A DNA stretch of 64,000 bases from an uncultured Bacilli bacterium. Its GTDB lineage: Bacteria; Bacillota_I; Bacilli_A; RF39; UBA660. Shown here one piece after another: positions 25,800 to 56,970 of this stretch; the first letter of the stretch is position 1; each line of letters opens with the position of its first letter. Location: NCBI GenBank assembly GCA_947600335.1, contig CANQGB010000001.1:2443-66442 (forward strand), read 5' to 3'. The position numbers and the translations under genes were made by a program. The notes beneath the pieces are model-generated. The model saw only the letters and a program-made list of their open reading frames with translations. It was not told the DNA's origin and did no database searches.

Positions 25800-25842
25800 T
25801 GTTGAAAATAAATTAAATTTTTATTTAAAGGAGGTAAAATTT

Positions 25843-28356: not shown

Positions 28357-28362
28357 ATAGAA

Positions 28363-29292: not shown

Positions 29293-29311
29293 ATAAGAGG
29301 AGTGGTAGTTT

Positions 29312-30526: not shown

Positions 30527-30573
30527 ATAAAATTATTTTTAAACAATCAAAAAAGGAAGGAATTAAAAACATC

Positions 30574-31629
30574 ATGAAAAAAAGAAATTCTTCAATAGAA
30601 TTATTGAAAATCATCGCAATTATATTAATTATTATTCAGCATAGTTGTCCCGTTTATGGAAATGTATCTGGGGGGGGGTATATTAATATAAAATATGCCA
30701 CTACAAATATTCAACAATTAATAATTAGTATTTTATCTTGTTTAGGAGAAATTGGAAATATTATATTTATAATGTGTTCTTCATGGTTTCTACTTGAAAA
30801 AAATAAAATAAATAGAAAAAAATTAATTCAAATAATATTAAATAGTTTAATAATTTCAATATTATATTTAGTCATTTTATCATTATTTGGTTTCCATTTT
30901 AATAAAGTATTAATTATCAAACAATTTTTGCCAATAACAATGAAAAATAATTGGTTTATAGGATGTTATTTATTATTTTATATGCTCACCCCATATTTAA
31001 ACATTATTATAAAAAATATTGATAAAAAAAATTTGCAAAATATTAACATAGTTTTATTTATTTTGTATAGTGGATTTTACTTTGTTTTAGGCAATAATGC
31101 GTACTATTTTAATGAATTAATTGGATTTATCTATATTTACTTAATAGTGGCATATGTAAAAATGTATATGTTAGATTTTCAAAAAAACATAAGTTTAAAT
31201 AAAAAATTATTAATATTCAGTTTAATCGGTTTTATAGGTTCTATGTTACTTACAAATTATATTGGATTATCTATTCCTTTATTATCTTCTAAATTAATGC
31301 ATTGGAATAAATTAACAAATCCATTTTATCTTTTATTTAGCATAAGTTTGCTAAACATATTTAAAAATAGAAATTTTTACAATAAAACTATTAATTATAT
31401 TTCATCATTATCATTAATAATATATTTAATACATGAAAACATTCTTTTTCGAGATTATATCAGACCAATATTTTATAATAGTGTGTTTAAATACCAAAAA
31501 TATATATTATGGATTTTTATTGAAATTATATTATTGATATTGTATTCATTAATACTATCAATTATCTATAATAAAACAGTTCAAAAATTTTTAAATTATA
31601 TAATTGAAAAAAAATTAAAATTTGAATAA
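30574..31629 (+). CDS. acyltransferase family 3 (O-acetyltransferase) membrane protein; contains an in-frame G9 tract
   Basis: Polytopic, with the acyltransferase-3 N-terminal pattern (LKIIAIILIIIQHS). G9 at 30670-30678 encodes GGG. Confidence 0.6.
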   Translation: MKKRNSSIELLKIIAIILIIIQHSCPVYGNVSGGGYINIKYATTNIQQLIISILSCLGEIGNIIFIMCSSWFLLEKNKINRKKLIQIILNSLIISILYLVILSLFGFHFNKVLIIKQFLPITMKNNWFIGCYLLFYMLTPYLNIIIKNIDKKNLQNINIVLFILYSGFYFVLGNNAYYFNELIGFIYIYLIVAYVKMYMLDFQKNISLNKKLLIFSLIGFIGSMLLTNYIGLSIPLLSSKLMHWNKLTNPFYLLFSISLLNIFKNRNFYNKTINYISSLSLIIYLIHENILFRDYIRPIFYNSVFKYQKYILWIFIEIILLILYSLILSIIYNKTVQKFLNYIIEKKLKFE

Positions 31630-31705
31630 ATTTAAGTTTCATTTTAGCACTTTAAATATATTATTAATTTTTGATGAAAAATATTATTTATTTGGAGGTT
31701 ATAAA

Positions 31706-32599
31706 ATGTATAATATTGGAGTTATCATATTAAACTATTTAGCATATCAAGCAACAATGGATACAATTGCTTCATTTAAAAAACAAAAAACTAAGGGAAT
31801 GAATGTAAAATATGTTATTGTTGATAATTGCTCAAATAATAATTCTTATTTAGAATTAAAGAAGAAATATAAAAATTGTGAAGATATTATTGTTGTTAAA
31901 GCAGATAAAAATTTAGGCTTTGCAAATGGGAATAATTTAGGTTATAAAACATTATTAAAATTTATGAATCCTGATTTTGTAATTATATCTAATGATGATA
32001 TTTTAATTGAAAATAATTCGTTATTTACATGGCTTATTGAGTGTTTTGATAAATATCATTATGCTGTCTTAGGACCTGACATTTATTCTATTAATGGAAA
32101 ATTTCATCAAAGTCCAGTTATTCCAAACGATACGAATGTATTAAAATGTTATAAGCAACTTATTCGCTATAAAATGAGTAAAATAAAAGGCCAAATAAGA
32201 AAATTATTGAATCAGCCTTCTCCATATGTTGGCTATCCATCATGGGATAATCGATATTATAAAGAATTTCATAATGATATGGCATTACATGGCTCATTTC
32301 AAATTTTCTCAAAATTATATTTTGATGTCTATTCAGAGCCTTATGATCCTTCAACATTTTTATATATGGAAGAAGATATATTGTTTTTACGGTGTAAAAT
32401 GTCTGTGGGGGGGGGGTTAAAAATGGTATATGATCCGAGTTTTCAAATTAAACATTTGCAAGCTGTTTCAACTAATATGATAAACTCAACTAACTATGAT
32501 AAAGAAATTTTTAGAAAAACACAATTGATTAAATCTATGAATATATATATTCATGTTTTAAAAAAAATGAAAAAAGAAGCATCTTGCAAATTTAAATAA
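31706..32599 (+). CDS. glycosyltransferase family 2; contains an in-frame G10 tract
   Basis: N-terminal IGVIILNY..VDNCSNN GT-A motif. RBS TGGAGG upstream of the ATG at 31706. G10 at 32407-32416. Confidence 0.6.
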   Translation: MYNIGVIILNYLAYQATMDTIASFKKQKTKGMNVKYVIVDNCSNNNSYLELKKKYKNCEDIIVVKADKNLGFANGNNLGYKTLLKFMNPDFVIISNDDILIENNSLFTWLIECFDKYHYAVLGPDIYSINGKFHQSPVIPNDTNVLKCYKQLIRYKMSKIKGQIRKLLNQPSPYVGYPSWDNRYYKEFHNDMALHGSFQIFSKLYFDVYSEPYDPSTFLYMEEDILFLRCKMSVGGGLKMVYDPSFQIKHLQAVSTNMINSTNYDKEIFRKTQLIKSMNIYIHVLKKMKKEASCKFK

Positions 32600-32629
32600 T
32601 TAAAAAAATAAAATATAATAAATGTAGAT

Positions 32630-34090
32630 ATGGTGGGAATAATGAAACAAAAATCAATTAAATTAAATTCTATTTTTAATATTTTAAGACAAGTATGTGC
32701 AATGTTATTTCCTATAATTACTTTTCCATATGTTTCTAGAATATTACAATCTGAAAATTATGGAAAAGTTAATTTTGTAAATTCAGTAGTTAGTTATTTT
32801 ATATTACTTGCAAGTTTAGGAATCAATAGTTATGCAATTCGTGAAGGTTCACCGTTAAGGAAGAATAAACAACAATTTCAAGAATTTGCTAATCAAATAT
32901 TTACAATAAACATGCTTTCAACTCTAATATCATATATTTTGCTGATATTATTATTTTTATTTTGGAAAAAGCTTAATTCATATGGGAGTCTTGTTTTAAT
33001 ATTAAGTTTAACAATAATTTCTTGGAATATTGGAGTAGAATGGCTATATTCAATTTATGAAGATTTTGGATATATAACATTTCGAAGTATTGTAGTACAA
33101 ATTATATCATTAGTATTATTATTTGTTTTTGTTAGATCAAAGGATGATTATTTAATTTATGCAGCTATTTTAGTATTATCAACTGGTGGAGCTAATTTAT
33201 TTAATTTTATTCATGCAAAAAAATACATACGTCTTCATATTACTAAAAGCCCAAATATAAAAAGACATATTATTCCAATGTTAATCTTATTTTGCAATTC
33301 TTTAATGACAACAATTTATGTAAATTCAGATATTACGATTCTTGGCATACTTCGTAATGATATTGAAGTTGGAGAATATAGTGTTGCTGTTAGAATATAT
33401 TCAATAATTAAAAGTATTCTTAATGCTATGTTAGTTGTTACACTACCAAGACTTTCTTTTTATGTAAATACTGGTGATAAGGAACATTATGACATTCTTT
33501 CTAAAAAAACTTTAAAATCATTATTAATAATTGTTTTTCCAGCAGTAGTAGGCCTTCTTATGGTAAGCCCTGATATTGTTTTAATATTAGTAGGGAATAA
33601 TTACTCTAATGTAATATTACCATTACGTTTATTAAGTATTGCTCTTGCTTTTACACTAATTGGTTCGTTTTTTGTTTCTGCGGTTTTAATACCACACAAA
33701 AAGGAAAAATTAGTTTTATATTGTACTATTGTCAGTGCAGTTATTAATTTAATTCTTAATTTTATTTTAATTCCTAAATTTGGGATGGTAAGTGCTGCAA
33801 TTACTACTATTATCGCTGAGTGTATTGTTATGATAATGGCAATATGCTTTTCAAGAGGTATTTTTTCATTTAAGGGATATAAGAAAAATATTATTGAAAT
33901 TTTAATTGGAATAGTTTTAATAGTAATTATATGTATACTAGTTGATTTAATTCATGCTAATGTATTTATTGATTTAATTATGAAAATTGTTTTTTCTTGT
34001 ATTTTTTATGGAATGGTATTATTGTTTACCAAAAATGAAATTTTCTATGAATTGAGTAATGAAATTAAAAAAAAATTTTTAAAGAGGTAG
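32630..34090 (+). CDS. Wzx-type polysaccharide flippase (MOP superfamily)
   Basis: Twelve or more transmembrane helices. N-terminal ILRQVCAMLFPIITFPYVSRIL matches the polysaccharide biosynthesis protein family pattern. Confidence 0.65.
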   Translation: MVGIMKQKSIKLNSIFNILRQVCAMLFPIITFPYVSRILQSENYGKVNFVNSVVSYFILLASLGINSYAIREGSPLRKNKQQFQEFANQIFTINMLSTLISYILLILLFLFWKKLNSYGSLVLILSLTIISWNIGVEWLYSIYEDFGYITFRSIVVQIISLVLLFVFVRSKDDYLIYAAILVLSTGGANLFNFIHAKKYIRLHITKSPNIKRHIIPMLILFCNSLMTTIYVNSDITILGILRNDIEVGEYSVAVRIYSIIKSILNAMLVVTLPRLSFYVNTGDKEHYDILSKKTLKSLLIIVFPAVVGLLMVSPDIVLILVGNNYSNVILPLRLLSIALAFTLIGSFFVSAVLIPHKKEKLVLYCTIVSAVINLILNFILIPKFGMVSAAITTIIAECIVMIMAICFSRGIFSFKGYKKNIIEILIGIVLIVIICILVDLIHANVFIDLIMKIVFSCIFYGMVLLFTKNEIFYELSNEIKKKFLKR

Positions 34091-34096
34091 TTTTAT

Positions 34097-35182
34097 ATGA
34101 TAGAAAATAATAAAAAAAGAATGTCCTTTCTTGATATAGCTAGAGGTATAGCTATAATTCTTATGGTATGTGGACATTGTGAAACATCCGGGGGGGGGGT
34201 TATTGAAAAATTTGTTAATTTATTTAGTATGTCCGTTTTTATTTTTATAAGTGGATATTTATTTAAAGATAAAAAATTTAATAATATTAGAGAACTTTTT
34301 AAATATATAGTTCATAAAGCAAAAAAATTATATTTATTTTATTTAAAATATGAATTACTATTTTTGGCATTGACAAACATATTCTTTAAAATTGGATTTT
34401 ATAGTTCAGAAATAAGTTATAGTGGTAAATTTATTTACCCAATAAATTCATTAAAAATAGTATTACAAAAAATTATTGAAATAGTTTTAGGCATGGGTAG
34501 AGAACCTTTTTGTGGAGCATTTTGGTTTATAATTTCTTTAATATTTATAATTTTTGGTTATTCAATTATACAATATATAAGTTATAAGCAAAATATTCTG
34601 AATAAAAAATTATGTGAAAAAATTGCAGTTATTATATGTTTCATAATTGGATGCCTAATGCAAGCAACTATAAATATACCAAGGGTTGCTCCAGCTTTTA
34701 CTTTAATGTTAGTCTATGATTTAGGAAATGAAGCATATATCAATAGAGAAAAAATTAAATTTAATAATTACATTTTAATGATTATTTGCTTTATTTTATT
34801 ATTAATCTTAAATAATTTTGGTAAAATTAGTATGAACAGTAATGAATTTACAAATCCGCTATACTTTATTATTTGTTCTTTAGCTGGAATATATTTTGTA
34901 ATTGCCATTTCAAATTTTATATTGGAAAAAACAAATAAAATAGCCAAAGTTTTAGAATATATTGGGAGAATAACTCTTGAAATAATGGCATGGCATTTTA
35001 TCGGTTTTAAAATTGCCATGTTGATACAACTTATATTTAAACATGTCGCATTTCCAGATTTAGCATACTTAAAAGGATACAATAATTCAAATTTATGGTA
35101 TTTTGTTTATATAATGTGTGGAATTGGATTACCAGTTATGATATCAAGTATCAAAAAAAAACTAGCTTCAAAAACTTGTTAA
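34097..35182 (+). CDS. acyltransferase family 3 membrane protein; contains an in-frame G10 tract
   Basis: Polytopic. N-terminal LDIARGIAIILMVCGH. G10 at 34190-34199 encodes GGG(V). Confidence 0.55.
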   Translation: MIENNKKRMSFLDIARGIAIILMVCGHCETSGGGVIEKFVNLFSMSVFIFISGYLFKDKKFNNIRELFKYIVHKAKKLYLFYLKYELLFLALTNIFFKIGFYSSEISYSGKFIYPINSLKIVLQKIIEIVLGMGREPFCGAFWFIISLIFIIFGYSIIQYISYKQNILNKKLCEKIAVIICFIIGCLMQATINIPRVAPAFTLMLVYDLGNEAYINREKIKFNNYILMIICFILLLILNNFGKISMNSNEFTNPLYFIICSLAGIYFVIAISNFILEKTNKIAKVLEYIGRITLEIMAWHFIGFKIAMLIQLIFKHVAFPDLAYLKGYNNSNLWYFVYIMCGIGLPVMISSIKKKLASKTC

Positions 35183-35479
35183 TATTTTAGAAATTATATC
35201 ATAAATTACAGTATTGAAAAATTGCAATTCTTATGTTAATTATTATATACAATATTAATCGTGAAATAAAAAGTTAAATTCTAGTTTTTAAAGAAAGAAA
35301 AAAATGAACAAGAAAGTTCCAAAAAAGGGACTTTTTTTGCTAGATGTAGAAAAAGAAAAAATAAGATATAATATATTTATCCAGTAAAAAATTTTATTGC
35401 ATACAAAAGGACAACAGAAAGCTGGATTTAAAAAAATATAAAAATAAATTTCTGTTGAGAATAAGTGCAAAAAATTATT

Positions 35480-35990
35480 TTAATGGATGCTTCTATAAAT
35501 ATATTTACTACTTTTTAGTTTTGTAAATATTTTAAGAGATAATGTTTTAGAATAACATTACCTATGTCAATTTTATTAACTCCAATTATAAGGAGTCTTG
35601 CCATTTAAAGACTCACGAAGAGTATAATTGATATGATCACAATAGAAAATATTTAATCTCATTTCTCCGGTATTTGGGTTCAAGTATAAGTTGAAAATCA
35701 TGTAAAGAATTAGACATAGCTTCAGATGTTTTTTTGATTTAATTTACCAAGCATTAAAGAAATATCTTCAAAATAAAAAGTTTGAATATAAGGATCAGAA
35801 TAAGAATTAAAACGGTATCCATTTCAGTAGTTTTAACTTTGGTTTATCTAATTTAAATTTTTCATAGTCTTTGAAATTATGTCTATCATAGTTTAAAGGA
35901 TCTTTCTTTTTTTTATATTTGTTTTTAAAATCTTTTCTTTTAAAGAAAGATTAATTAGTCTTCATTTCTAAAAACACCTTCATTAATATA
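35480..35990 (-). pseudogene. degenerate transposase/integrase remnant (fragmented frames)
   Basis: The minus-strand frame around 35590-35640 encodes a GKTPYNW-like peptide reminiscent of rve-type integrase core motifs. No intact ORF. The interval is about 900 bp of non-coding sequence between acyltransferase genes. Confidence 0.25.
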
Positions 35991-36022
35991 ATGATATAAG
36001 CTACTAAAAAGGATGTTTGTAG

Positions 36023-36051
36023 TTGACAAAGTCTGGGGGGGGGGTTATAAT
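36023..36051 (+). promoter_or_regulatory. sigma-A promoter whose 17-nt spacer contains a G10 homopolymer (candidate phase-variable promoter)
   Basis: TTGACA at 36023-36028, spacer aagtctGGGGGGGGGGt, TATAAT at 36046-36051. The ATG of the downstream gene lies 29 nt further on. Confidence 0.6.
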
Positions 36052-36080
36052 TACTTTAATCTTTTAAAGGATGATTAAGT

Positions 36081-37196
36081 ATGACCAAAAGTAAAAGAAA
36101 TTCCACTCTAGAAATATTAAGAATTATATCTATGCTTCTGATTATTATGCATCACTATTCTGTACATGGTTTTGAATTAATGAATTTACCACTTGCTTTA
36201 AATAAATTTATTGTTGGTTTTCTTTCATTAGGGGGAAAATTAGGAGTATCATGTTTTATTTTAATATCAGGATATTACATGATTGATTCTAAATTTACAT
36301 TGCAAAAGTTTTTAAAATTAGTTGGGGAAATATGGTTTTATTCAATTTCAATGTTAATTTTATTTTTAACAGTATTGAATCCTGTTGAGCTTAATATGAA
36401 ATTGATAATATCCAGTATTTTTCCTTTATTATCTAGTTTTTATTGGTTTATGACCGCCTATGTTTTGCTAATGATTCTTAGTCCTATTTTAAATTTAATA
36501 ATTAATAATATAGGTAAATGTTTACATGAAAATCTAATTATTTTTTCTATATTAATATGGTCATTTTTACACAATTTTTTAAATTTTGAACTTTATTATA
36601 ATGATTTTATATGGTTTATAGTTCTTTATTTTATAGCAGGTTATTTAAAGAAATATCCAAAAAGAAAAACAAAAAAACATTTTCTTAAAGCTTTTATATC
36701 GTATTTAATAATTATAATTAGTGATATTTTATTAATATATATTGGTAGTAAATATAATATAAATTATCTAGTGGAAAAAAGTGCTCATTTTTCAGAATTA
36801 AATAGCCCATTTATTTTATTTTCTTCTATTGAATTGTTTTTAGGTTTTTCTAATTCAAAGCCATTTAATAATAAAATAGTAAACAATGTAGCTAGCACAA
36901 CACTTGGTATATACCTTATTCATGATAATAGAATAATGCGTCCTTTTTTATGGAATACAATATTTAATAATTCCAAAATGTTTTTTTCCAATTTTTTATT
37001 ATTGCATTCTATTTTTTCTGTTTTAATTGTATTTATTTTTTGCATGATAATCGATTTAATTCGGCAAAATACAATTGAAAAATTATATTTAAAAATTTTA
37101 AATAAGTTTTTAATAAAGATTAAATTATTTTTAGAAAAAATTATTTTAAAAATAAAAAATTTATTTTTTGCAAATAAACTTACTAACCAAAATTAA
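36081..37196 (+). CDS. acyltransferase family 3 membrane protein
   Basis: Polytopic. N-terminal LEILRIISMLLIIMHHYSVH is the acyltransferase-3 pattern. Confidence 0.6.
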   Translation: MTKSKRNSTLEILRIISMLLIIMHHYSVHGFELMNLPLALNKFIVGFLSLGGKLGVSCFILISGYYMIDSKFTLQKFLKLVGEIWFYSISMLILFLTVLNPVELNMKLIISSIFPLLSSFYWFMTAYVLLMILSPILNLIINNIGKCLHENLIIFSILIWSFLHNFLNFELYYNDFIWFIVLYFIAGYLKKYPKRKTKKHFLKAFISYLIIIISDILLIYIGSKYNINYLVEKSAHFSELNSPFILFSSIELFLGFSNSKPFNNKIVNNVASTTLGIYLIHDNRIMRPFLWNTIFNNSKMFFSNFLLLHSIFSVLIVFIFCMIIDLIRQNTIEKLYLKILNKFLIKIKLFLEKIILKIKNLFFANKLTNQN

Positions 37197-37423
37197 TATT
37201 TTTTTTAATTATTAAAATTAATATCTTTAGACTGCCGAAATCAGACCTATTAATAGGCCATTTTTTAATTATATAACTGAATAGCTAGAAAAATGTGAAA
37301 TCATCTAATAATTTAATATTTTACGAAAATGTGATAAAATAGCATAATTTTCAAGCAAAAGTGTGATAATTCTATTAAAATTCTCTGCAAAAGTGTGATT
37401 TAATATAATCAAAAGGTGATAAA

Positions 37424-38353
37424 ATGAAAAGATTTATAACTGCCAAATTGATTGAATGGAAAAATAGCCAAGATAGGAAAAATCTCATTTTAAAAGGAAC
37501 AAGGCAAGTAGGGAAAACTTATATTTTACAAGAATTTGGTAAAAATAATTATGATAAAGAAATACCTAAATTATTTGAATCTATGCTTATCGAAAAATTA
37601 AAGGCTTACTATATTGTTGAAGGTATGTCTGAAGGTGTTTATAGTTGGGTTAATAATAAGGATATAGAAAAAGTTAATAAACTTCAACAAAACATTTTAG
37701 ATACTTATGAAGCTGATTTTTCTAAGCATGTGGATACAAATGAAGCCAATAAAATATCGTTAATCTGGAATGGAATACCTTCCCAATTAGCTAGAGAAAA
37801 TAAAAAATTCGTTTATCAATTAGTTAAAGAAGGAGCTCGAGCTCGAGAATATGAAAATGCTCTAAACTGGTTAAAAGATAGTAACTTAATTTCTAAATGT
37901 TTTTTAGTTAATAAATGTGCTTTCCCTTTAAAAGCTTATAATGATTTATCAGCCTATAAAATATATATGCTAGATGTTGGACTTCTAAGAAAGATGGCTA
38001 ATTTAGATAGTAGCATTATTTTAGAAAGCAATAAATTATTTGAAGAGTTTAAGGGTTCTTTTACTGAAAATTACGTAGTAAATGTTTTAAATTATTTATT
38101 TAATTCTTCGCCAAATTATTATACATTTGATCGAAATGAAATTGATTTTGTTATTCAAATAAAAAATAAAATTATCCCTATTGAAATAAAGTCTAATAAA
38201 AGCACTAACCACAATAGTTTAACTAAATATAATGCTAATAATGACAATGAGTTATCATTTAGATTTTCTTTAAACAATTTGAGTAAAGATGGAAAAATTA
38301 TAAATATCCCATTGTATTTCATTGAATATATTTGTAATCTTAATATTTATTAA
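37424..38353 (+). CDS. AAA_14/DUF4143-family ATPase paralog, apparently internally deleted (Walker A retained, Walker B region missing)
   Basis: GTRQVGKTY Walker A is followed directly by the DUF4143-like C-terminal part. Full-length paralogs lie at 44212 and 58832. Confidence 0.45.
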   Translation: MKRFITAKLIEWKNSQDRKNLILKGTRQVGKTYILQEFGKNNYDKEIPKLFESMLIEKLKAYYIVEGMSEGVYSWVNNKDIEKVNKLQQNILDTYEADFSKHVDTNEANKISLIWNGIPSQLARENKKFVYQLVKEGARAREYENALNWLKDSNLISKCFLVNKCAFPLKAYNDLSAYKIYMLDVGLLRKMANLDSSIILESNKLFEEFKGSFTENYVVNVLNYLFNSSPNYYTFDRNEIDFVIQIKNKIIPIEIKSNKSTNHNSLTKYNANNDNELSFRFSLNNLSKDGKIINIPLYFIEYICNLNIY

Positions 38354-38564
38354 AAATAACTAATATAGACAAAAGTTATTCCAGTACACTGGAATAACTT
38401 TTGAAATTAAACAAATATATTATTATAGTATACAAAGTCAATTGGATATATCTAGCACAACTAAAAAATTATATGTCTAAATAACTTGTTTTTAATCCCC
38501 AAAAATATTATAATCATAGCAAACACATGGAAATAAACTCGAAAAATTTAGAAAGTAGGATTAT

Positions 38565-40124: not shown

Positions 40125-40161
40125 TATAGAGAAAATAAAAAGGAAGTAGGTTGTTACATTA

Positions 40162-43281: not shown

Positions 43282-43289
43282 GAATAAAA

Positions 43290-43325
43290 AAACTAAGAAT
43301 TTAAAATAATTTTTTCTTAGTTTTT
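43290..43325. terminator. bidirectional terminator hairpin between the helicase gene and the 143-aa gene, copy 2
   Basis: AAAAAACTAAGAA-N-TTCTTAGTTTTT. Confidence 0.5.
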
Positions 43326-43330
43326 CCCAT

Positions 43331-43999
43331 ATTATTCTTCATCATCATGATGAGTATCATCTACTACTTTTTCTGCTTCAGCCCCAGTTACCTGAAACGG
43401 TAAAGTATTTAAGATCAATTCTGGTTCTTGTTTACTCGGTTCATTGTCTAAAACTAAATCAGTGATTTTAAAAGTAGTTGATTTAGTTTCTTGTAAAGCT
43501 TTAAAAGTAAAACCGATCTTTTTAGAACCTTGACCACCATTAATTTTACCTTCATAGATAATTTCACCAGGAGTAGAATTATCAACTTTGTTAGTTTTAA
43601 GTAAGCTTACAACTGAACCTTCAAGATACTCAAATATTTCCTCATTAAAACTTAATTTAAATGAGGCACTACTGATTGGCTTATCAAGCACAAGTGATAC
43701 TTGATTAGTATCAAGCACTCTGATTAATGTAGATTGAGAAGTTAATTTTGCATTTACATTCATAATATTCCATGTCCTTTCTAATATAATTTTACTATAA
43801 TAATCAGCTTAATTAAAAATTTTTAATTAAAGTTAACATTATAGTTGACAAAATATCCTTGAGAAACCCCTAAAAATAAGGAAAAAAAGAGTAAATAATG
43901 CCCTAAATAATGTAAAAAGTGCAAAAAATGTAAAAAAATTTCAAAATATTCAAAATATCTGTTATAATATAAAAGAAATATTTAAGAAACGAAAGGAGA
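43331..43999. repeat. direct repeat copy 2
   Basis: About 95% identical to 22810-23476. Confidence 0.85.
43332..43763 (-). CDS. hypothetical 143-aa protein, copy 2 of the duplicated paralog
   Basis: About 92% aa identity to the gene at 22809-23240. Confidence 0.5.
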   Translation of the reverse strand: MNVNAKLTSQSTLIRVLDTNQVSLVLDKPISSASFKLSFNEEIFEYLEGSVVSLLKTNKVDNSTPGEIIYEGKINGGQGSKKIGFTFKALQETKSTTFKITDLVLDNEPSKQEPELILNTLPFQVTGAEAEKVVDDTHHDDEE

Positions 44000-44026
44000 C
44001 TTGCTAACCATTGTCAAGTCTTTTTT
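43998..44026 (+). terminator. terminator hairpin immediately after the repeat-borne promoter
   Basis: GACTTG-CTAACCATTGT-CAAGTC followed by T6. Confidence 0.5.
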
Positions 44027-44211
44027 ATATACGCAATTGGTTTATTTAACTGAAATTTTAATTCCACGTCAAAAAGAATAGAGTGATTTCTCTAAAAAGT
44101 CTCGGGTTGATTTGTTAAAATCTCACGGAATGATTTTTCAAAATTACACGGTTTTTACTTGACATTTCTTTAGAACATAATATAAACTTATAATAAGTGA
44201 GGGATAAAACT

Positions 44212-45489
44212 ATGGAAATACAAAATTATCGAAAAAGAATTGTTGATGCTAAAATTGAAGAATACCTCAAAATGTTTGGGGCGGTTTGTATTGAAGGACC
44301 TAAATATTGTGGCAAAACTTGGGCTGGTAGATTTCACGCTAATAGTGAAACATTACTTCATAACAATACCGGTGAGGGTTCTAATAATATCGAAATTGCC
44401 AAAATATCTCCTAATATCATTTTAGAAGGAGCTAAGCCTAAATTAATTGATGAATGGCAAGAAGCGACTAATCTTTGGGATGAAATAAGAAACAATATTG
44501 ATAAAAGTGGTTTAAAAGGCCAATATATTTTAACCGGTTCATCAACTCCCAAAAGGGATGGAATCTCTCATAGTGGTGCCGGTCGCTTTGGTAAAATTCA
44601 TTTACGGCCCATGTCATTATACGAATCTGGTGATTCCACAGGAGTTGTTTCATTGCAAGATATATGTAACAACCAAGAAATCGCTAAATCAACGGGTGAA
44701 GTGGACTTAAAAGAATTAGCTCGCCTAATTATTCGTGGTGGTTGGCCTGGAAACTTAGAATTTTCTTCATCAGAAGCTAAAAAAGCCTTAAATGAATATA
44801 TTGACTTAATAATTAACGATGATTTATATCGCTTAGATGGCATCAACCGCGATAAACATAAAATGAAATTACTTTTAAAATCTTTAGCCCGCAACGAAAG
44901 CACAACTGTTACCAATACTACTTTAAAGCGAGATATTAATGAAAAAGACAATGAGGATATTGATATTGATACCTTAGCATCCTACTTAAATGCTCTTGAC
45001 AAGTTATTTTTACTAGACAATGATGAACCTTTTTCGACTAATATTCGTTCTTCCATCCGAGTTAAACAATCTGAAAAGCGCCATTTTGCCGACCCATCAA
45101 TTGCTTGTGCCTTATTAAACTTATCTGAAGAAAAATTGATCAACGATTTAGAAACCTTTGGCTTTTTATTCGAAGCTATGGTGGAAAGAGACTTAAAAAT
45201 ATACGCTGATTCTTTTGATGCTAAAACCTATCATTATCAAGATTACTTAAATAGAGAAATAGACCAAGTAATTGAACTGGAAGATGGAACTTGGTGTGCC
45301 TTTGAAATCAAATTAGGTGTCAATGCCATTGACCAAGCCGCCAGTAATCTTATCAAAATTCGTGATTCCATTAAAGAAAACAATGGCAATTATCCTAAAG
45401 TATTATGTGTCATCTGTGGTTTAGCCAATGCTGCTTATAAAAGAGCTGATGGAGTTTATGTTGTACCTATTACCGCTTTAAAAAATTAA
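44212..45489 (+). CDS. AAA_14/DUF4143-family ATPase
   Basis: Walker A GPKYCGKTW, DEWQ Walker B-like box, C-terminal DUF4143-type region. RBS GAGGGA. Confidence 0.55.
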   Translation: MEIQNYRKRIVDAKIEEYLKMFGAVCIEGPKYCGKTWAGRFHANSETLLHNNTGEGSNNIEIAKISPNIILEGAKPKLIDEWQEATNLWDEIRNNIDKSGLKGQYILTGSSTPKRDGISHSGAGRFGKIHLRPMSLYESGDSTGVVSLQDICNNQEIAKSTGEVDLKELARLIIRGGWPGNLEFSSSEAKKALNEYIDLIINDDLYRLDGINRDKHKMKLLLKSLARNESTTVTNTTLKRDINEKDNEDIDIDTLASYLNALDKLFLLDNDEPFSTNIRSSIRVKQSEKRHFADPSIACALLNLSEEKLINDLETFGFLFEAMVERDLKIYADSFDAKTYHYQDYLNREIDQVIELEDGTWCAFEIKLGVNAIDQAASNLIKIRDSIKENNGNYPKVLCVICGLANAAYKRADGVYVVPITALKN

Positions 45490-46697
45490 TCTTCATTATC
45501 GCTATCATTTTTATATAACTCTTTAACTCTTGCATAATAAATTCGCAAAAATTTATTTAAACCAGCTACTTTGGCTACTTTTTTAGGTTTACCTTCGGCT
45601 TCCTTTTTTAAAATAAATAAGTAAACACTATTATCTTTTTGTGGTCTTGAAGACTTAATACTTTTCATAACTTCATAGCCAACTTTTCTTAAATATTTAT
45701 TACCTCTTTTGGTAATATGCCTATTCGTAGCATTAAACATACCTGATTGATATGGTGGGGTATCAATACCACAATAAGCAATTAAACAATTAGCATTCTT
45801 AAATCTTCTAATATCCCCGATTTCCGCTATTAATCTAGCTCGCGTTTTTTCACCAACACCAGTCATATTCTTAACAATTTCATATTCATCTAACTGTTTT
45901 GCTAATTCATCCATTCTCGAAATTAAATCATTAGTTATCTTGATAGAATCTCGTAAAAGAATAATACAACTAGTAATAGTTAATTGTAAAGATTCATTGT
46001 AGGGAATAGATGTCGTAACTGTCGGGGCCATTTCATAAATTTGTTCTCCAATAATTCTGCCTACTTTATGTTTATATTTTTGCGCTAAATTTTCTATATT
46101 ATCAATAAAAACCGTTTTGTCTTGTTCCAATACCTTTGTTGGATAAGAATAAATTTCATATATATCTAGTAGTAATTGATATCTGCTTTCCGCATTGACA
46201 ATCTCCTTTATTCCTGGAAAAGTTTGGTCAATTAAATTAGTTAATTGAACCTTTAACTTAGTTTGAATACTTATATATTCTGAATATTGTCTTGATAAAA
46301 AAAGAAGTTGTTCTCTTATTTCATTAGACAATTGATATTTTTTTAGTTTATACCATTTTTCACTGCAATAAACAGCTAATTTTAAAGAATCTTTTTTATC
46401 GTTTTTTACTTTTCTTAAATCTACATCACAATATTTTTTGATTACTAAGGCATTTTCAACACAAACAAAGTAATCATTTTGTAGTAAAAAATTTAAAATA
46501 GATAAATGGTAATGACCTGTTGCCTCCATTAAAATTTTTGTTTCACTTTTGTTTAATTTTTCGAGTTTTAACAGTAAATCGTTAAAACCATTTTGGTCAT
46601 GAATAATTTCAAAAGGTTCATAAATAATTTCACCATGGATATTAATAACTGCAATTGTACTTTTGCCTTTTGAAACATCAATTCCTACTGCATACAT
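45486..46697 (-). CDS. IS110 family transposase
   Basis: N-terminal MYAVGIDVSKGKS..IAVI (DEDD RuvC-like region). C-terminal transposase_20 region with ARLIAEIGDIRRF and AYCGIDTPPYQSG. Confidence 0.85.
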   Translation of the reverse strand: MYAVGIDVSKGKSTIAVINIHGEIIYEPFEIIHDQNGFNDLLLKLEKLNKSETKILMEATGHYHLSILNFLLQNDYFVCVENALVIKKYCDVDLRKVKNDKKDSLKLAVYCSEKWYKLKKYQLSNEIREQLLFLSRQYSEYISIQTKLKVQLTNLIDQTFPGIKEIVNAESRYQLLLDIYEIYSYPTKVLEQDKTVFIDNIENLAQKYKHKVGRIIGEQIYEMAPTVTTSIPYNESLQLTITSCIILLRDSIKITNDLISRMDELAKQLDEYEIVKNMTGVGEKTRARLIAEIGDIRRFKNANCLIAYCGIDTPPYQSGMFNATNRHITKRGNKYLRKVGYEVMKSIKSSRPQKDNSVYLFILKKEAEGKPKKVAKVAGLNKFLRIYYARVKELYKNDSDNED

Positions 46698-47088
46698 ATT
46701 AAAAAAACCTCCTAATTATTATAATTGGTTCCATCCTTCTACATACCTTCTGCCTGGTACACGAACGCATTCGTTCATCTTGCTAATCGAAAGTATTATG
46801 TATTAGATGGTCGACTTTCCTCCTTTTTTCGAACGAATTTAGTTCAGATAGTAAACGTCGACCAATTACGATTATTGATAATAATAAAAATTGGGAAAAT
46901 AATCAACATTTTCTGTATATATAAATATATAAAAGTAACGGTTATCGACCAATTTACACATAATTATCATAAAAAGTGGTCGATAACTTGCTCTTTTATA
47001 AAAAATAATAAGTTTATTATAAATAAAAAAATATATAGGACATTAAATTAACGACACGTCGTTAATATTATAAAATAATTTAATCAAA
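45486..47088 (-). mobile_element. IS110-family insertion sequence (approximate bounds)
   Basis: Transposase gene plus about 390 bp of 5' non-coding region with subterminal TCGACCAATT and GGTCGA repeats. No terminal inverted repeats, as is typical for IS110. The right bound is set by the start of the conserved leader repeat at 47090. Confidence 0.55.
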
Positions 47089-47089
47089 G

Positions 47090-47343
47090 ATAAATTTACT
47101 TTAAAAAAAGTAGATTTTTTTTATGTGAAAAAATAACTCTCATCTTCAGCCTGGTTAATTACACGAAAGTACACAAGGTATTTCAACTTGCTTAAACGAA
47201 AACAGTTAATAAGGAAAAACAACAATCCTCCTTTACGAAAGATAAAACTATTCAGATAGTGAGCGTTGGTTTTTCCTAAATAACAATAATAAGAGTTTGT
47301 AGTAATAATCGATTAATTACTACATCTAAATGGTACCAGGATA
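47090..47343 (+). repeat. conserved roughly 255 bp non-coding leader, copy 1
   Basis: Over 95% identical to 60063-60317. GC-richer than its surroundings. Confidence 0.8.
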
Positions 47344-48393
47344 GTGATGAAAAACATTGAAATAAAAAACAAAACGCTATTAATAACTGGAGTTGCAGGT
47401 TTTATCGGGTCAAATCTATGCCAAAGATTATTAGAAGAAGAACCAAGTGTAAAAATAATTGGAATAGATAATATGAATGATTATTATGATGTCAAATTAA
47501 AAGAATACCGATTAAATCAAATTAATAAATATTCCAATTTTAAGTTCATAAAAGGCAATATTGCTAATAAAGAATTAATAAGAGACATATTTAAAGAATA
47601 TAAACCAGCAATAGTAGTAAATTTAGCTGCTCAAGCAGGAGTAAGATATAGCATTACCAATCCTGATACATACATAGAATCAAATATAATAGGCTTTTAT
47701 AATATTCTGGAAGAATGCCGACATAATCCTGTAGAGCATTTAGTGTATGCTTCATCATCATCCGTATATGGTTCAAACAAAAAAGTCCCATATTCAACAG
47801 AAGATAAGGTAGATAATCCAGTAAGTTTATATGCAGCAACTAAAAAGTCAAATGAATTATTAGCTCATGCATATTCAAAATTATATGATATACCAACAAC
47901 AGGATTAAGATTCTTTACAGTATATGGTCCTGCCGGAAGACCAGATATGGCATATTTTAGTTTTACAAACAAACTGATTTCTGACGAAAAAATACAGATA
48001 TTCAATTATGGAAAATGTAAAAGAGATTTTACATATATAGATGACATAGTAGAAGGAATAATTCGGGTAATAAAAGGAGCACCAGATAAAAAACAAGGAA
48101 AAGATGGATTGCCTATTCCTCCATATGCCATATATAACATCGGCAATAGTAATCCTGAAAATTTATTAGATTTCGTTCAAATATTGCAAGAAGAATTAGT
48201 AAGAGCTGATGTCCTACCAGAAGATTATAATTTTGAAACCAATAAAGAATTAGTACCAATGCAACCTGGTGATGTACCAATTACTTATGCCGATACAACA
48301 CCACTAGAAAGAGATTATGGATTCAGACCAAGTACTCCTTTAAGAGAAGGCTTAAGAAAATTTGCAGAATGGTATAAGGAATATTACAAGTAA
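47344..48393 (+). CDS. NAD-dependent epimerase/dehydratase (UDP-glucuronate 4-epimerase-like)
   Basis: LLITGVAGFIGSN Rossmann motif, YASSSSVYG, YAATK catalytic motif. Confidence 0.75.
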   Translation: MMKNIEIKNKTLLITGVAGFIGSNLCQRLLEEEPSVKIIGIDNMNDYYDVKLKEYRLNQINKYSNFKFIKGNIANKELIRDIFKEYKPAIVVNLAAQAGVRYSITNPDTYIESNIIGFYNILEECRHNPVEHLVYASSSSVYGSNKKVPYSTEDKVDNPVSLYAATKKSNELLAHAYSKLYDIPTTGLRFFTVYGPAGRPDMAYFSFTNKLISDEKIQIFNYGKCKRDFTYIDDIVEGIIRVIKGAPDKKQGKDGLPIPPYAIYNIGNSNPENLLDFVQILQEELVRADVLPEDYNFETNKELVPMQPGDVPITYADTTPLERDYGFRPSTPLREGLRKFAEWYKEYYK

Positions 48394-48405
48394 GAAGGAA
48401 TTACA

Positions 48406-48870
48406 GTGAAAAATAAAAATAATAAACCCAAATTATGTCTAGTATCTAGTAGTGGTGGGCACTGGGAACAATTACAAAAATTGCAACCATTAATAGATAA
48501 ATATTCTGGATTCAAAGTTACAGAAAAAACCAACTTTGAAGCAAATGCTAATTATTTTATGATACAAACTGATATGAAAGATAAATTAATGCCTTTAAAA
48601 ATGTTGTGGAACAGTTTTTATACGTTAATTATATGGATAAAAGAAAGACCAGATTTTATTATTACCACTGGCACAATGGTTGCTTATCCATTTTATTTGT
48701 TATCTATAATATTTAGGAAAAAATTTATTTTTATTGAAACATTTGGTAGAGCAAATATGCCAACAATAGCTGGTAAAAAAATGGAAAAACATAGTGATTT
48801 ATTTATAGTCCAATGGGAAAGTCAAAAAAAATATTATAAAAAGGCTATATATGGAGGTTGTTTATATTGA
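48406..48870 (+). CDS. Alg14-like glycosyltransferase accessory subunit (Cps14F/PssD-like)
   Basis: KLCLVSSSGGHWEQL N-terminus. About 150 aa with transmembrane segments. Paired with the Alg13-like gene. Confidence 0.65.
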   Translation: MKNKNNKPKLCLVSSSGGHWEQLQKLQPLIDKYSGFKVTEKTNFEANANYFMIQTDMKDKLMPLKMLWNSFYTLIIWIKERPDFIITTGTMVAYPFYLLSIIFRKKFIFIETFGRANMPTIAGKKMEKHSDLFIVQWESQKKYYKKAIYGGCLY

Positions 48871-49364
48871 TATTTGTAACAGTTGGTTCAAGGAACTATC
48901 CATTTGATAGATTATTTAAAAAATTAGATGAATTATATGAAAATAAAAAAATTAAAGAAAAAATGTTTGCTCAAATAGGGACATCATCATATAAGCCTAA
49001 ATATTTTGAATATAAAGATTTTATTTCTCCTGAAGAATTTCAAAAAAAAATAAATGAAGCAGATATTGTAATAACCCATGGTGCAAGTGGTTCAATTATG
49101 AAAGCATTAAATGCTAACAAAAAAGTAATAGTAGTTACAAGATTAGAAAAATATGGTGAACATATAAACGACCACCAAATTCAGAATAATGAAGCATTTG
49201 CGGAAAATCATTATGTATTAATGGCTGATTTAGAACTTGAAAATTTAGAAGAGTGTCTAAAAAAAATAAAAGTGAAAAATAATGGGCTTGTAAAATGGGA
49301 TAACAAAGACCCAATGGCTATAGTTAATATGATAGATAAATTTATACAAGATAATTGGAAATAG
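48858..49364 (+). CDS. Alg13-like glycosyltransferase catalytic subunit (Cps14G/PssE-like, GT28 C-terminal domain)
   Basis: IFVTVGS..F.RL start, ITHGASGSIMKAL. Confidence 0.65.
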   Translation: MFILIFVTVGSRNYPFDRLFKKLDELYENKKIKEKMFAQIGTSSYKPKYFEYKDFISPEEFQKKINEADIVITHGASGSIMKALNANKKVIVVTRLEKYGEHINDHQIQNNEAFAENHYVLMADLELENLEECLKKIKVKNNGLVKWDNKDPMAIVNMIDKFIQDNWK

Positions 49365-49446
49365 TTAATTTTAAATAAATTTAAAATTTTGCTATTATTG
49401 AGAAATCAATTTTTTTAAAGATTAATAAGATAGGAGTCTAATTATA

Positions 49447-49926
49447 ATGAATGTTAAAAGATTAAAAAAATTAGCTATGATAATTAAACTATCGCTAAGT
49501 AATGATGGATACAAAAAAGCAGAATATTTAAAAAAGCATGGTAATTTTAAACAATTTGGTGATAAAAACTTTTGGTATCCGCGAATTATTCCTTCAGATA
49601 CTGAATTAATTTCTATTCACAATAATGTTAAAGTTGCAACAGATGTTTATTTTTGTACTCATGATGTTTTACATAATTTATTTAATGATGAAACATCGGG
49701 GGGGGGGTCAAAATTTAGCAGATACTTTGGTGAAATAGAAATATATGATAATGTTTTTATTGGAGCTAGAAGCACAATAATGTATAACGTTAAAATAGGG
49801 CCAAATGCAATAGTTGCTGCTAATAGTGTTGTCACAAAAGATGTACCTGAAGGAGCAGTAGTTGCCGGCAATCCTGCTAGAATAATAGGAAAGTATGAAA
49901 CTATAAAATTTAAAAGGCTGAAATAA
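49447..49926 (+). CDS. hexapeptide-repeat (LbH) O-acetyltransferase; contains an in-frame G10 tract
   Basis: C-terminal IGARSTIMYNVKIGPNAIVAANSVV..VVAGNPARI LbH repeats. G10 at 49698-49707. Confidence 0.65.
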   Translation: MNVKRLKKLAMIIKLSLSNDGYKKAEYLKKHGNFKQFGDKNFWYPRIIPSDTELISIHNNVKVATDVYFCTHDVLHNLFNDETSGGGSKFSRYFGEIEIYDNVFIGARSTIMYNVKIGPNAIVAANSVVTKDVPEGAVVAGNPARIIGKYETIKFKRLK

Positions 49927-49959
49927 AATTAAATATTTAATTTTGAAAGAAGTGAAAAT

Positions 49960-53197: not shown

Positions 53198-53248
53198 TAA
53201 TATTAAATTTATGAATAATAAAAAATTAAAAGAATGAAGGAATAAAAT

Positions 53249-54196: not shown

Positions 54197-54213
54197 ACTA
54201 ATAGGAGTTATGT

Positions 54214-55446: not shown

Positions 55447-55460
55447 GAAGTGATAAATTT

Positions 55461-56957: not shown

Positions 56958-56970
56958 AAGAAGTGATATC

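What the first reader, a model, noticed from the sequence alone, without database searches (positions are those of the whole stretch)
30670..49707. Five G9-G10 homopolymer tracts in 28% GC DNA, all in glycan-modifying genes: predicted slipped-strand phase variation
The tracts lie at 30670-30678 (G9, acyltransferase-3), 32407-32416 (G10, GT2), 34190-34199 (G10, acyltransferase-3), 36035-36044 (G10, promoter spacer) and 49698-49707 (G10, hexapeptide acetyltransferase). Each coding tract is read as GGG-GGG-GGG, so a change of one G gives a frameshift and switches the gene off. Runs of ten G are essentially never seen by chance at this base composition. Their confinement to O-acetyl and glycosyl transferases mirrors the Campylobacter and Neisseria contingency loci. 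It predicts stochastic ON/OFF switching of capsule or EPS decoration, which would serve antigenic and phage-receptor variation.
Basis: partly seen in the sequence, partly recalled or inferred. Interest (0 to 1): 0.9.

Follow-up and report, generated by a model that had tools for sequence, protein, structure and literature searches.

The report
Poly-G switches in surface-sugar genes
An uncultured rabbit-gut bacterium carries five runs of 9-10 G in genes that decorate its surface polysaccharide, and other samples show different run lengths that break or restore two of these genes, as in the mutational on/off switches known from Campylobacter and Neisseria.

Summary
The window (26.0% GC) has exactly five G/C runs of 6 or more: G9 at 30670 and G10 at 32407, 34190, 36035 and 49698. 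About 0.008 are expected, and there are no runs of 6-8. Four lie in frame in two AT3 acyltransferases, a GT2 glycosyltransferase and a hexapeptide acetyltransferase, and ±1 G truncates each. The fifth fills the 17-nt spacer of a perfect TTGACA/TATAAT promoter before a third AT3 gene.

New evidence supports hypermutability. In other metagenome assemblies of the same strain (98.8-100% identical), tract 1 is G10 (frameshifted) in two samples and tract 5 is G7 in one. In a relative with about 82% nucleotide identity, the homologous hexapeptide tract occurs as G8, G9, G10 and G11. Both full-length and truncated products are recorded, and DNA shows G9 against G11 in contigs 99.5% identical. More distant orthologues, including Mediterraneibacter, split at the same Gly run.

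Verdict: these are slipped-strand contingency loci controlling O-acetylation and glycosylation of a capsule or EPS. It is a new member of a known kind, in uncultured gut Bacilli. Reversibility within a clone and the phenotype remain untested.

The parts
30670..30678 (+). Tract 1, G9, codons 33-35 of AT3 acyltransferase a. It is in frame (ON) here.
   Evidence: One search gives the coordinates. One search shows G8 and G10 give 38- and 37-aa products. Searches show G10 in L091 (ERZ27249451) and L092 (ERZ27249440), so the gene is frameshifted there.
30574..31629 (+). AT3 (Acyl_transf_3) membrane O-acyltransferase a, 351 aa, stand-alone AT3 without an SGNH domain.
   Evidence: PF01757, E=3e-19, full length. 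The tract lies just after the first conserved His-containing segment.
31706..32599 (+). GT2 glycosyltransferase, 297 aa from ATG 31706. The ORF lister starts it at TTG 31622, giving 325 aa.
   Evidence: PF00535; the 297-aa product is the form on record (P0079). One search shows the same gene call.
32407..32416 (+). Tract 2, G10, aa 234-237 of 297 in GT2. It is ON here.
   Evidence: G9 and G11 give 237- and 242-aa products that lack the last ~60 aa. L091 also has G10.
32630..34090 (+). Wzx-type flippase (context). It marks the locus as Wzx/Wzy-dependent polysaccharide synthesis.
   Evidence: PF01943, PF13440, MurJ.
34097..35182 (+). AT3 acyltransferase b, 361 aa.
   Evidence: PF01757, E=4.5e-24. 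One search lists homologues.
34190..34199 (+). Tract 3, G10, codons 32-35 of AT3 b. It is ON here.
   Evidence: G9 and G11 give 50- and 36-aa products. At the same site a 73%-identical orthologue has G9 (L010) and a 62%-identical orthologue has G8 (L004). Homologues at 61% identity or less lack a run at this site.
36023..36051 (+). Sigma-70-type promoter, TTGACA-17 nt-TATAAT, with the G10 inside the spacer.
   Evidence: 12 of 12 matches, spacer 17; only 2 such sites in the window against 0.22 expected.
36035..36044 (+). Tract 4, G10, setting the promoter spacer length (17 nt now; 16 or 18 nt after ±1).
   Evidence: L003, another sample, also has G10.
36081..37196 (+). AT3 acyltransferase c, 371 aa, the gene downstream of the tract-bearing promoter.
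   Evidence: PF01757, E=1e-19. An RBS (AAAGGA) lies ahead of ATG 36081.
49447..49926 (+). Hexapeptide-repeat (left-handed beta-helix) acetyltransferase, 159 aa.
   Evidence: PF00132 and PF14602; 910 homologues.
49698..49707 (+). Tract 5, G10, aa 84-87 of 159, in the variable loop before the hexapeptide domain. It is ON here.
   Evidence: L093 (ERZ27249446) has G7. The orthologous tract is G9 in L095 and G11 in L094.
23712..37196 (+). Glycan cluster 1: GT2, GT4/GT1, a membrane protein, a flavin oxidoreductase, AT3 x3, GT2 and Wzx.
47344..63379 (+). Glycan cluster 2: epimerase, Alg14/Alg13-like pairs, hexapeptide AcT, HAD, TOD1-like GT, Wzy, AT3 without a tract, TupA ATP-grasp and CapA-like.

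Best explanation
The five poly-G runs are hypermutable simple-sequence repeats, that is, contingency loci. During replication the nascent or template strand slips within the G run, adding or removing a G. In the four coding tracts this shifts the reading frame. The two AT3 O-acyltransferases are cut after their first conserved His-containing segment, at 36-50 aa. The hexapeptide acetyltransferase is cut before its beta-helix domain, at about 90 aa. The GT2 loses or swaps its last ~60 residues. In the fifth tract the same event changes the -35/-10 spacing of a consensus promoter from the optimal 17 nt to 16 or 18 nt, which should turn expression of a third AT3 gene down. Each switch is heritable and, in principle, reversible by the opposite slip. 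One lineage can therefore generate up to 2^5 combinations of O-acyl and glycosyl decorations on its Wzx/Wzy-made capsule or exopolysaccharide. Shown: the tracts, their non-random nature, the consequences of ±1, and natural tract-length polymorphism that gives intact and broken genes. Inferred: the slippage mechanism, reversibility within a clone, the effect on the glycan, and the selective agent (phage receptors, host antibody or lectins).
For: Statistics: five runs of 9 or more are observed against about 0.008 expected, and the run-length distribution is bimodal with nothing at 6-8.
Codon usage: GGG is 8.5% of Gly codons outside the tracts. All 17 other Gly-Gly-Gly tripeptides in the window use mixed codons, for example GGT GGG GGT GGG GGA in trmD.
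Placement: the tracts lie in non-conserved, length-variable loops and are absent at that site from more distant homologues.
Consequences: ±1 G truncates all four proteins.
Promoter: a 12/12 consensus with a 17-nt spacer that contains the G10.
Polymorphism in the same strain (98.8-100% identity): tract 1 is G9 in the window and G10 in L091 and L092, and this is the only indel in L091. The gene caller then starts at an internal Met (P0067, P0068). Tract 5 is G10 in the window and G7 in L093.
Polymorphism in a relative (~82% nt identity, same flank gatgaaacatcG(n)): L095 is G9 and ON at 19x coverage. L094, from NCBI MAG GCA_947625535.1, is G11 and OFF. The two are 99.5% identical and the single gap is the tract. 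The 90% cluster holds 160-aa forms and 90/91/96/97-aa forms, all diverging exactly at the Gly run, which implies G8 to G11.
Other frameshifted genes in relatives: the L004 GT2 at G9 splits into 71 + 252 aa and is restored by G8 or G11. The L019 AT3 at G9 splits into 231 + 123 aa and is restored by G8 or G11.
Controls: about 34 kb of non-glycan genes in the window have no tract. Eighty AT3 loci (~1.3 Mb) from other taxa have only five runs of 9 or more, and 72 of the 80 loci below 30% GC contribute none of them.
Against: No read-level data were available, so heterogeneity within one population and reversibility are not shown.
The same-strain contigs with different lengths have only 2-3x coverage, so an individual call could be a sequencing or PCR slippage error. 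The G9/G11 pair at 19x and in an NCBI MAG, and variants seen on dozens of contigs, are harder to dismiss.
Tracts 2, 3 and 4 showed no variation in the single other sample available for each, and predicted OFF products for them are not in the protein collection.
All four coding tracts are ON in the window.
The GT2 truncation may not inactivate the enzyme.
The mismatch-repair status of the organism is unknown.
The window is only 64 kb, so the genome-wide distribution of tracts is not known.
Confidence: 0.8

Rival explanations
1. The tracts are real but effectively static. They encode a tolerated Gly3 linker, and the length differences between samples are ordinary fixed strain differences or one-way pseudogenisation, as with wcjE loss in pneumococcal serotypes 11A to 11E, rather than reversible high-frequency switching.
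For: Tracts 2-4 are identical in the one other sample each. All coding tracts are in frame in the window. No within-sample data exist.
Against: Four different lengths (G8-G11) occur at one site among near-identical sequences, with the tract as the only indel. In-frame and out-of-frame variants recur across three orthologue clusters on dozens of contigs. Exclusive use of the rare GGG codon and the gap at run lengths 6-8 argue that the homopolymer itself is selected, not the Gly3 peptide. The tract-encoded residues are not conserved.
Confidence: 0.12
2. Sequencing or assembly artefact. The runs would be poly-G artefacts of two-colour Illumina chemistry, or homopolymer miscalls incorporated into low-coverage contigs.
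For: The same-strain variant contigs have 2-3x coverage. Homopolymers are error-prone.
Against: The tracts are embedded in continuous ORFs with homologous sequence on both sides and keep the frame. They are present in independent assemblies from at least five samples. They are conserved at the homologous site in orthologues 62-87% identical, including a 19x contig and NCBI MAGs. Two-colour artefacts give long terminal G tails, not internal G9-G10 runs.
Confidence: 0.02
3. The runs act mainly at the RNA or translation level. Transcriptional slippage by RNA polymerase, or ribosomal frameshifting on G10, would yield a fixed mixture of full-length and truncated products from one genotype, so expression is tuned rather than switched.
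For: Long homopolymers are known slippage sites for RNA polymerase (established mainly for A/T runs of 9 or more). This could partly rescue OFF genotypes.
Against: It does not explain the DNA-level length polymorphism seen, nor the promoter-spacer tract, which is not transcribed. Slippage on G runs is much weaker than on A/T runs (general knowledge, not tested here).
Confidence: 0.05

Closest known systems
Campylobacter jejuni poly-G contingency loci in the capsule, LOS and flagellar-glycosylation clusters (for example the cj1420-cj1429 capsule-modification genes; 29 tracts of G7 or longer in NCTC11168: PMC4965091, PMC6321876, PMC8355987)
   Same: A low-GC genome carries G9-G10 tracts far above chance. 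They are concentrated in surface-glycan modification genes and are mostly intragenic with ±1 frameshift ON/OFF. Several tracts sit in one locus, giving combinatorial glycan structures, and length differs between isolates.
   Different: The host here is an uncultured monoderm of class Bacilli, not an epsilonproteobacterium. The targets are AT3 and hexapeptide O-acyltransferases rather than MeOPN or methyl transferases. Switching rates, repair background and phenotype are unknown here.
Neisseria meningitidis porA (poly-G in the -35/-10 spacer) and opc (poly-C), Bordetella fim (poly-C), Mycoplasma hyorhinis vlp (poly-A): promoter-spacer phase variation (general knowledge)
   Same: A homopolymer lies between the -35 and -10 hexamers, so tract length sets the spacer and hence promoter strength. 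The present length gives the optimal 17 nt.
   Different: No expression data exist here. The gene controlled is a glycan acyltransferase rather than a porin, fimbria or lipoprotein.
Phase-variable O-acetyltransferases: E. coli K1 NeuO (hexapeptide family, heptanucleotide repeats), Haemophilus influenzae OafA (AT3, repeat-mediated) and Salmonella OafB (AT3, Dam/OxyR epigenetic) (PMC9558356 for the AT3 cases)
   Same: The enzyme families are the same (AT3 and hexapeptide acetyltransferases). The outcome is the same: stochastic presence or absence of O-acetyl groups on capsule or LPS, which affects phage and antibody recognition.
   Different: The repeat type or mechanism differs: heptamer or tetramer repeats or methylation there, mononucleotide G runs here. 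Those cases are in Proteobacteria.
Helicobacter canadensis homopolymeric tracts with C-terminal sequence switching (PMC2823697)
   Same: A tract near the 3' end of a gene changes the C-terminal sequence rather than nulling the protein. This is the likely situation for the GT2 tract (aa 234 of 297).
   Different: The organism and genes differ, and this was not tested here.
Streptococcus pneumoniae stand-alone AT3 capsule O-acetyltransferases WcjE and WciG (PMC9558356)
   Same: These are stand-alone ~350-aa AT3 proteins inside a Gram-positive Wzx/Wzy cps locus, and their loss changes the serotype or epitope.
   Different: Pneumococcal loss is by assorted irreversible mutations, not a built-in homopolymer switch.

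Membership tests
SSR (homopolymer) phase-variable contingency locus | A mononucleotide G/C tract long enough to be hypermutable (7-8 or more) and far above chance expectation | tested here: met
   Five tracts of G9-G10 against about 0.008 expected, with no runs of 6-8.
SSR (homopolymer) phase-variable contingency locus | The tract is positioned so that a length change alters expression (within an ORF, or in the promoter spacer) | tested here: met
   ±1 G truncates all four ORFs. The G10 forms the 17-nt spacer of a 12/12 consensus promoter.
SSR (homopolymer) phase-variable contingency locus | Tract-length polymorphism among near-identical strains, with the tract as the main or only indel | tested here: met
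   Tract 1 is G9 against G10 in two samples, and tract 5 is G10 against G7. The orthologue is G9 against G11 at 99.5% identity, with G8-G11 inferred from proteins. No variation was seen for tracts 2-4 (n=1 other sample each).
SSR (homopolymer) phase-variable contingency locus | High-frequency, reversible ON/OFF switching within a clonal population | not testable with these tools
   This needs raw reads or cultures; only assembly consensus sequences were accessible.
SSR (homopolymer) phase-variable contingency locus | A phenotypic switch (altered surface structure) | not testable with these tools
   The organism is uncultured and no glycan data exist.
Acyltransferase-3 (AT3, PF01757) O-acyltransferases | A full-length match to the AT3 profile above Pfam's gathering score, with the conserved N-terminal His | tested here: met
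   Scores are 69.6, 85.5 and 71.1 bits against a cut-off of 31, covering profile positions 2-324. His27 is invariant in the alignments.
Hexapeptide-repeat (LbH) acetyltransferases (PF00132) | Hexapeptide repeats above the gathering score | tested here: met
   36.4 bits against a cut-off of 27. There are 910 homologues, and the named ones are called acyltransferase or maltose O-acetyltransferase.
Wzx/Wzy-dependent capsule/EPS locus | Flippase, polymerase and glycosyltransferases co-located | tested here: met
   Wzx at 32630-34090, Wzy_C at 54214-55446, and GT1, GT2 and GT4 genes. The syntenic relative L094 adds Wzz, a CpsD-like ATPase and Bac_transf. Which polymer is made is unknown.

The most novel reading that the evidence does not exclude
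Poly-G contingency loci are a conserved and widespread strategy for capsule or EPS decoration in commensal gut Firmicutes, not only a quirk of this MAG. The same loop of one hexapeptide O-acetyltransferase family is kept as a hypermutable G run from uncultured rabbit-gut Bacilli (26% GC) to Mediterraneibacter/[Ruminococcus] torques-group Lachnospiraceae (40% GC). ON and OFF alleles segregate in hundreds of public metagenome contigs, and neighbouring AT3 and GT2 genes carry their own tracts. If so, SSR-based phase variation would stand beside invertons as a major, so far largely uncatalogued source of surface heterogeneity in the gut microbiota, readable directly from metagenomes.
Probability: 0.45. 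Interest if true: 0.65.

Novelty: new member of a known kind. Interest (0 to 1): 0.45.

Why it matters
Phase variation through homopolymer slippage is textbook for mucosal pathogens such as Campylobacter, Helicobacter, Neisseria and Haemophilus. In gut commensals the documented switches are mostly DNA inversions. Here an uncultured Bacilli lineage from rabbit gut has a density of poly-G switches (five in 19 kb) comparable to the C. jejuni capsule locus. All five are aimed at O-acylation or glycosylation of a surface polysaccharide, and public metagenomes already contain the ON and OFF alleles. This gives a concrete, testable case that commensal Firmicutes diversify their glycan coat by slipped-strand mutation. 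It also has three practical consequences. Frameshifted 'pseudogenes' at G runs in MAGs should not be read as gene loss. Assembly consensus hides population heterogeneity at such sites. Tract-length counting in reads could report selection by phage or host immunity on uncultured taxa.

Tried and rejected
1. Exact-protein look-ups of the predicted OFF products of tracts 1, 2, 3 and 5 (ten sequences) found none on record. This is uninformative, because only 1-3 contigs of this strain exist per gene.
2. The genome-contig scan with the AT3 alignment did not return the window's own genome or a close relative with long context. It served only as a control set and gave the 'uncultured Bacilli / Lapin (rabbit)' provenance.
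A few unrelated acetyltransferases with G9-G11 runs were seen but not pursued.
4. L010 (73% orthologue, G9) first looked like an OFF variant because its protein starts late. Reading the DNA showed the tract is in frame and the upstream region simply differs, so it is not counted as OFF.
5. A/T homopolymers (A9/T9, four each) are fewer than base composition predicts (my arithmetic from the base frequencies), so they are not treated as switches.
6. G-quadruplex formation was rejected, because single isolated G10 runs cannot form intramolecular four-run quadruplexes.
7. Literature searches found no description of these tracts in gut Bacilli or Lachnospiraceae, nor of the rabbit MAG set. This is absence from a partial library only.
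Full report
OBSERVATION

The window is 26.0% G+C, and 21-25% over 30-38 kb. A census of homopolymers finds exactly five G or C runs of six or more. They are G9 at 30670-30678, and G10 at 32407-32416, 34190-34199, 36035-36044 and 49698-49707, all G on the + strand. The G-run length distribution is 1-5 (5934, 1201, 128, 31 and 11 runs), then nothing at 6-8, then the five long runs. The longest C run is 5. With the observed p(G)=0.139 and p(G|G)=0.179, about 0.008 runs of 9 or more are expected.

ANATOMY

- ORFs 30574-31629, 34097-35182 and 36081-37196 are stand-alone AT3 acyltransferases (PF01757).
- ORF 31622/31706-32599 is a GT2 glycosyltransferase.
- ORF 49447-49926 is a hexapeptide-repeat acetyltransferase.

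These genes sit in two Wzx/Wzy-type polysaccharide clusters, at 23.7-37.2 kb and 47.3-63.4 kb. The clusters are separated by a helicase, AAA_14/DUF4143 ATPases and an IS110 transposase.

Tracts 1 and 3 occupy codons 33-35 and 32-35 of their AT3 genes, directly after the segment that carries the invariant His. Tract 5 is at aa 84-87 of 159, ahead of the hexapeptide domain. Tract 2 is at aa 234-237 of the 297-aa GT2. All four are in frame in the window.

Simulated ±1 or ±2 changes give products of 35-51 aa (AT3 a and b), 89-97 aa (hexapeptide enzyme) and 237-242 aa (GT2).

Tract 4 is not coding. It lies inside the spacer of TTGACA (36023-28), 17 nt, TATAAT (36046-51). This is a 12/12 consensus match and one of two in the whole window against 0.22 expected. 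It is followed by an RBS and by ATG 36081 of the third AT3 gene.

IS THE HOMOPOLYMER ITSELF SELECTED?

GGG makes up only 8.5% of Gly codons outside the tracts. The 17 other Gly-Gly-Gly tripeptides in the window's ORFs are all written with mixed codons, including the conserved Gly run of trmD. All eight GGGGGG dicodons belong to the four tracts.

In alignments, the tract-encoded glycines fall in non-conserved, length-variable loops. For AT3 b, the 73%- and 62%-identical orthologues have a G run at the same site (G9 in L010, G8 in L004). Homologues at 61% identity or less do not, and one of them carries a G8 at a different site. For the hexapeptide enzyme, the tract lies between the conserved CTHDVLHxLFND and RYSGEIE motifs, where length varies from 0 to 12 residues.

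Housekeeping genes in the window (miaB, rimM, trmD, a SpoU-type methylase, signal peptidase, a helicase) have no tract. As an outside control, 80 AT3-containing loci from other taxa (~1.3 Mb) hold only five G/C runs of 9 or more, and none in the loci below 30% GC.

EVIDENCE FOR HYPERMUTABILITY

The organism is uncultured. Its genes occur only in ENA assemblies and NCBI MAGs. The two related MAGs I fetched (GCA_947625535.1 and GCA_947627975.1) have accession prefixes matching the rabbit ('Lapin') MAG series seen. The nearest named MiaB relatives are 'MAG: Bacilli bacterium' at 73% identity.

Same strain, other samples. Looking up the window's proteins in their 90% clusters gave shorter members. 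P0067 and P0068 start 'MEMYLGGGYINIKY', whereas the window reads '...PVYGNVSGGGYINIKY'. The DNA shows why. L091 (ERZ27249451) and L092 (ERZ27249440) are 99.9% and 98.8% identical to the window, and both carry G10 instead of G9 at tract 1. In L091 this is the only indel. The true N-terminus is therefore out of frame, which is an OFF allele. P0071 (158 aa) has one glycine fewer, and its contig L093 (ERZ27249446) has G7 instead of G10 at tract 5. Tracts 2, 3 and 4 were G10 in the single other contig available for each.

Close relative. The 90% cluster of the 87%-identical hexapeptide orthologue contains two 160-aa proteins and four truncated ones of 90, 91, 96 and 97 aa. All are identical up to the Gly run and diverge there in the two alternative frames, which implies G8, G9, G10 and G11. 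DNA confirms this. L095 (ERZ27059787, 19x coverage) has G9 and an intact gene. L094 (NCBI MAG GCA_947625535.1) has G11 and a 97-aa product. The two are 99.5% identical with one gap, the tract. Both share the window's flank gatgaaacatcG(n) at about 82% nucleotide identity to window 48.4-58.0 kb.

More distant orthologues. Clusters at 72% and 67% identity show the same pattern on many contigs. Full-length forms carry two, three or four glycines. Truncated forms of 98-114 aa branch at the run, for example P0209 on 83 contigs, P0223 on 21 and P0096 on 23.

Mediterraneibacter. One of these lineages is an uncultured Mediterraneibacter MAG (L019, 40% GC). Its syntenic locus has the hexapeptide gene with G7 (ON). 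It also has an AT3 gene split into 231 + 123 aa at a G9, which G8 or G11 restores to 339/340 aa, and a further G9 tract.

L004. The GT2 at G9 is split into 71 + 252 aa and is restored by G8 or G11.

MECHANISM

The best-supported reading is slipped-strand mispairing at homopolymeric tracts. It gives heritable frameshift ON/OFF switching of two AT3 O-acyltransferases and one hexapeptide acetyltransferase. It gives truncation or C-terminal switching of a GT2. It gives spacer-length modulation of the promoter of a third AT3 gene, and the present G10 yields the optimal 17 nt.

The tract-length polymorphism and its consequences for the ORFs are shown. The slippage mechanism, reversibility, rates, the effect on the glycan and the selective agents are inferred by analogy with established systems.

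All tracts, here and in relatives, are G on the sense strand. A plausible reason (inference) is that Gly runs are tolerated whereas CCC runs would encode ribosome-stalling polyproline.

RIVALS

- An artefact is very unlikely. The tracts are embedded in homologous ORFs, recur in independent assemblies and are conserved in orthologues.
- Static tracts with ordinary strain differences cannot be excluded without reads. This fits poorly with four lengths at one site among near-identical sequences, and with the codon evidence.
- RNA-level slippage may add to the effect but does not explain the DNA polymorphism or the promoter tract.

COMPARISON AND NOVELTY

The system works like the C. jejuni poly-G contingency genes of the capsule, LOS and flagellar glycosylation loci (PMC4965091, PMC6321876, PMC8355987). 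The promoter tract works like the Neisseria porA/opc type of spacer switch (general knowledge). Phase-variable O-acetyltransferases of the same enzyme families are known, such as OafA and OafB among AT3 proteins (PMC9558356) and NeuO in the hexapeptide family (general knowledge).

The testable defining features of an SSR contingency locus are met. Clonal reversibility and phenotype are not testable here.

It is therefore a new member of a known kind. What is new is the host, an uncultured gut Bacilli lineage with an indication of the same in Lachnospiraceae, and the density, five switches in 19 kb. I found no description of this in the searchable literature, which is a partial library.

CAVEATS

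The same-strain variant contigs have 2-3x coverage. Only 64 kb of the genome was examined. Tracts 2-4 have no observed variants. The GT2 effect is uncertain.

Noticed in passing
L019:8456-15607 (uncultured Mediterraneibacter sp. MAG, CALWFY010000001.1): A 40%-GC Lachnospiraceae MAG has a syntenic arrangement of Alg13-like gene, hexapeptide AcT and AT3, with its own poly-G tracts. There is a G7 in the AcT (ON). There is a G9 at 10150 that splits the AT3 into 231 + 123 aa, restored by G8 or G11. There is also a G9 at 15096 in a 205-aa ORF. The orthologue clusters (P0083, P0096, and P0112, which is M. faecis/[R.] torques 'maltose O-acetyltransferase') hold many full-length and truncated members.
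   Followed up: partly
window 35480-35720 (- strand): The ~900-nt gap between AT3 b and the G10 promoter holds stop-riddled ORF fragments. One ends '...INYTLRESLNGKTPYNWS', which resembles the C-terminus of an IS integrase/transposase. The tract-bearing promoter and AT3 c may therefore sit next to a decayed insertion sequence.
   Followed up: partly
window 34182-34199 and 49690-49707: Tracts 3 and 5 share the upstream flank GAAACATC(C) followed by G10, which encodes 'ETSGGG' in two unrelated proteins (AT3 and hexapeptide AcT). The hexapeptide flank is conserved in the relative at 82% nt identity. This may be chance, a sequence preference or transfer of the tract; it is unexplained.
   Followed up: no
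window 45486-46697 (-); L095:28-1218 (-): An IS110-family transposase lies between the two glycan clusters. The relative L095 also has an IS110 gene directly upstream of its Alg14-like gene, at 77% nt identity to the window copy.
   Followed up: no
window 48406-49364 and 60318-61300: Two paralogous Alg14-like/Alg13-like (GT28 C-terminal) gene pairs occur. L093 matched both, at 99.7% and at 92.9% over 310 nt, so the cluster contains a recent duplication.
   Followed up: no
window 37424-38353, 44197-45489, 58832-60046: Three AAA_14/DUF4143 ATPase genes, one of them N-terminally truncated, are interspersed with the glycan clusters. The second perfect TTGACA-N17-TATAAT promoter of the window (58776-58804) precedes the third of them.
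   Followed up: no
window 7540-7626 (absent from L002) and 31599-31623 (absent from L092): There are two further indels between samples of the same strain. An 87-bp segment at the 3' end of the YceD-like ORF is missing in L002, where the gene caller then produces a 203-aa product carrying the L32 domain. A 25-bp segment at the 3' end of AT3 a is missing in L092. Both contigs have ~2x coverage, so these may be assembly errors.
   Followed up: partly
window 2484-5372 (+): A 962-aa ORF has a prepilin-type N-terminal cleavage/methylation signal and Gly-rich stretches near its C-terminus. This is unusually large for a pseudopilin-like protein.
   Followed up: no
L006:9899-9905 (also L007-L009); L006:8411-8418: In a relative (NCBI MAG GCA_947627975.1), a G7 run overlaps the Shine-Dalgarno region 6 nt before the ATG of the gene after glf. 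Its AT3 orthologue carries a G8 at a different position (about aa 277, an inserted 'CKFGG') from the window's AT3 b. This suggests independent gains of tracts within the family.
   Followed up: partly
L084:4910, L056:179, L036:4810, L107:503, L096:1486, L146:2548: Isolated G/C runs of 9-11 occur in glycan or acetyltransferase loci of other gut and rumen MAGs and metagenome contigs, including a sheep-rectum bacterium, Segatella and Pyramidobacter. They were not examined gene by gene.
   Followed up: no
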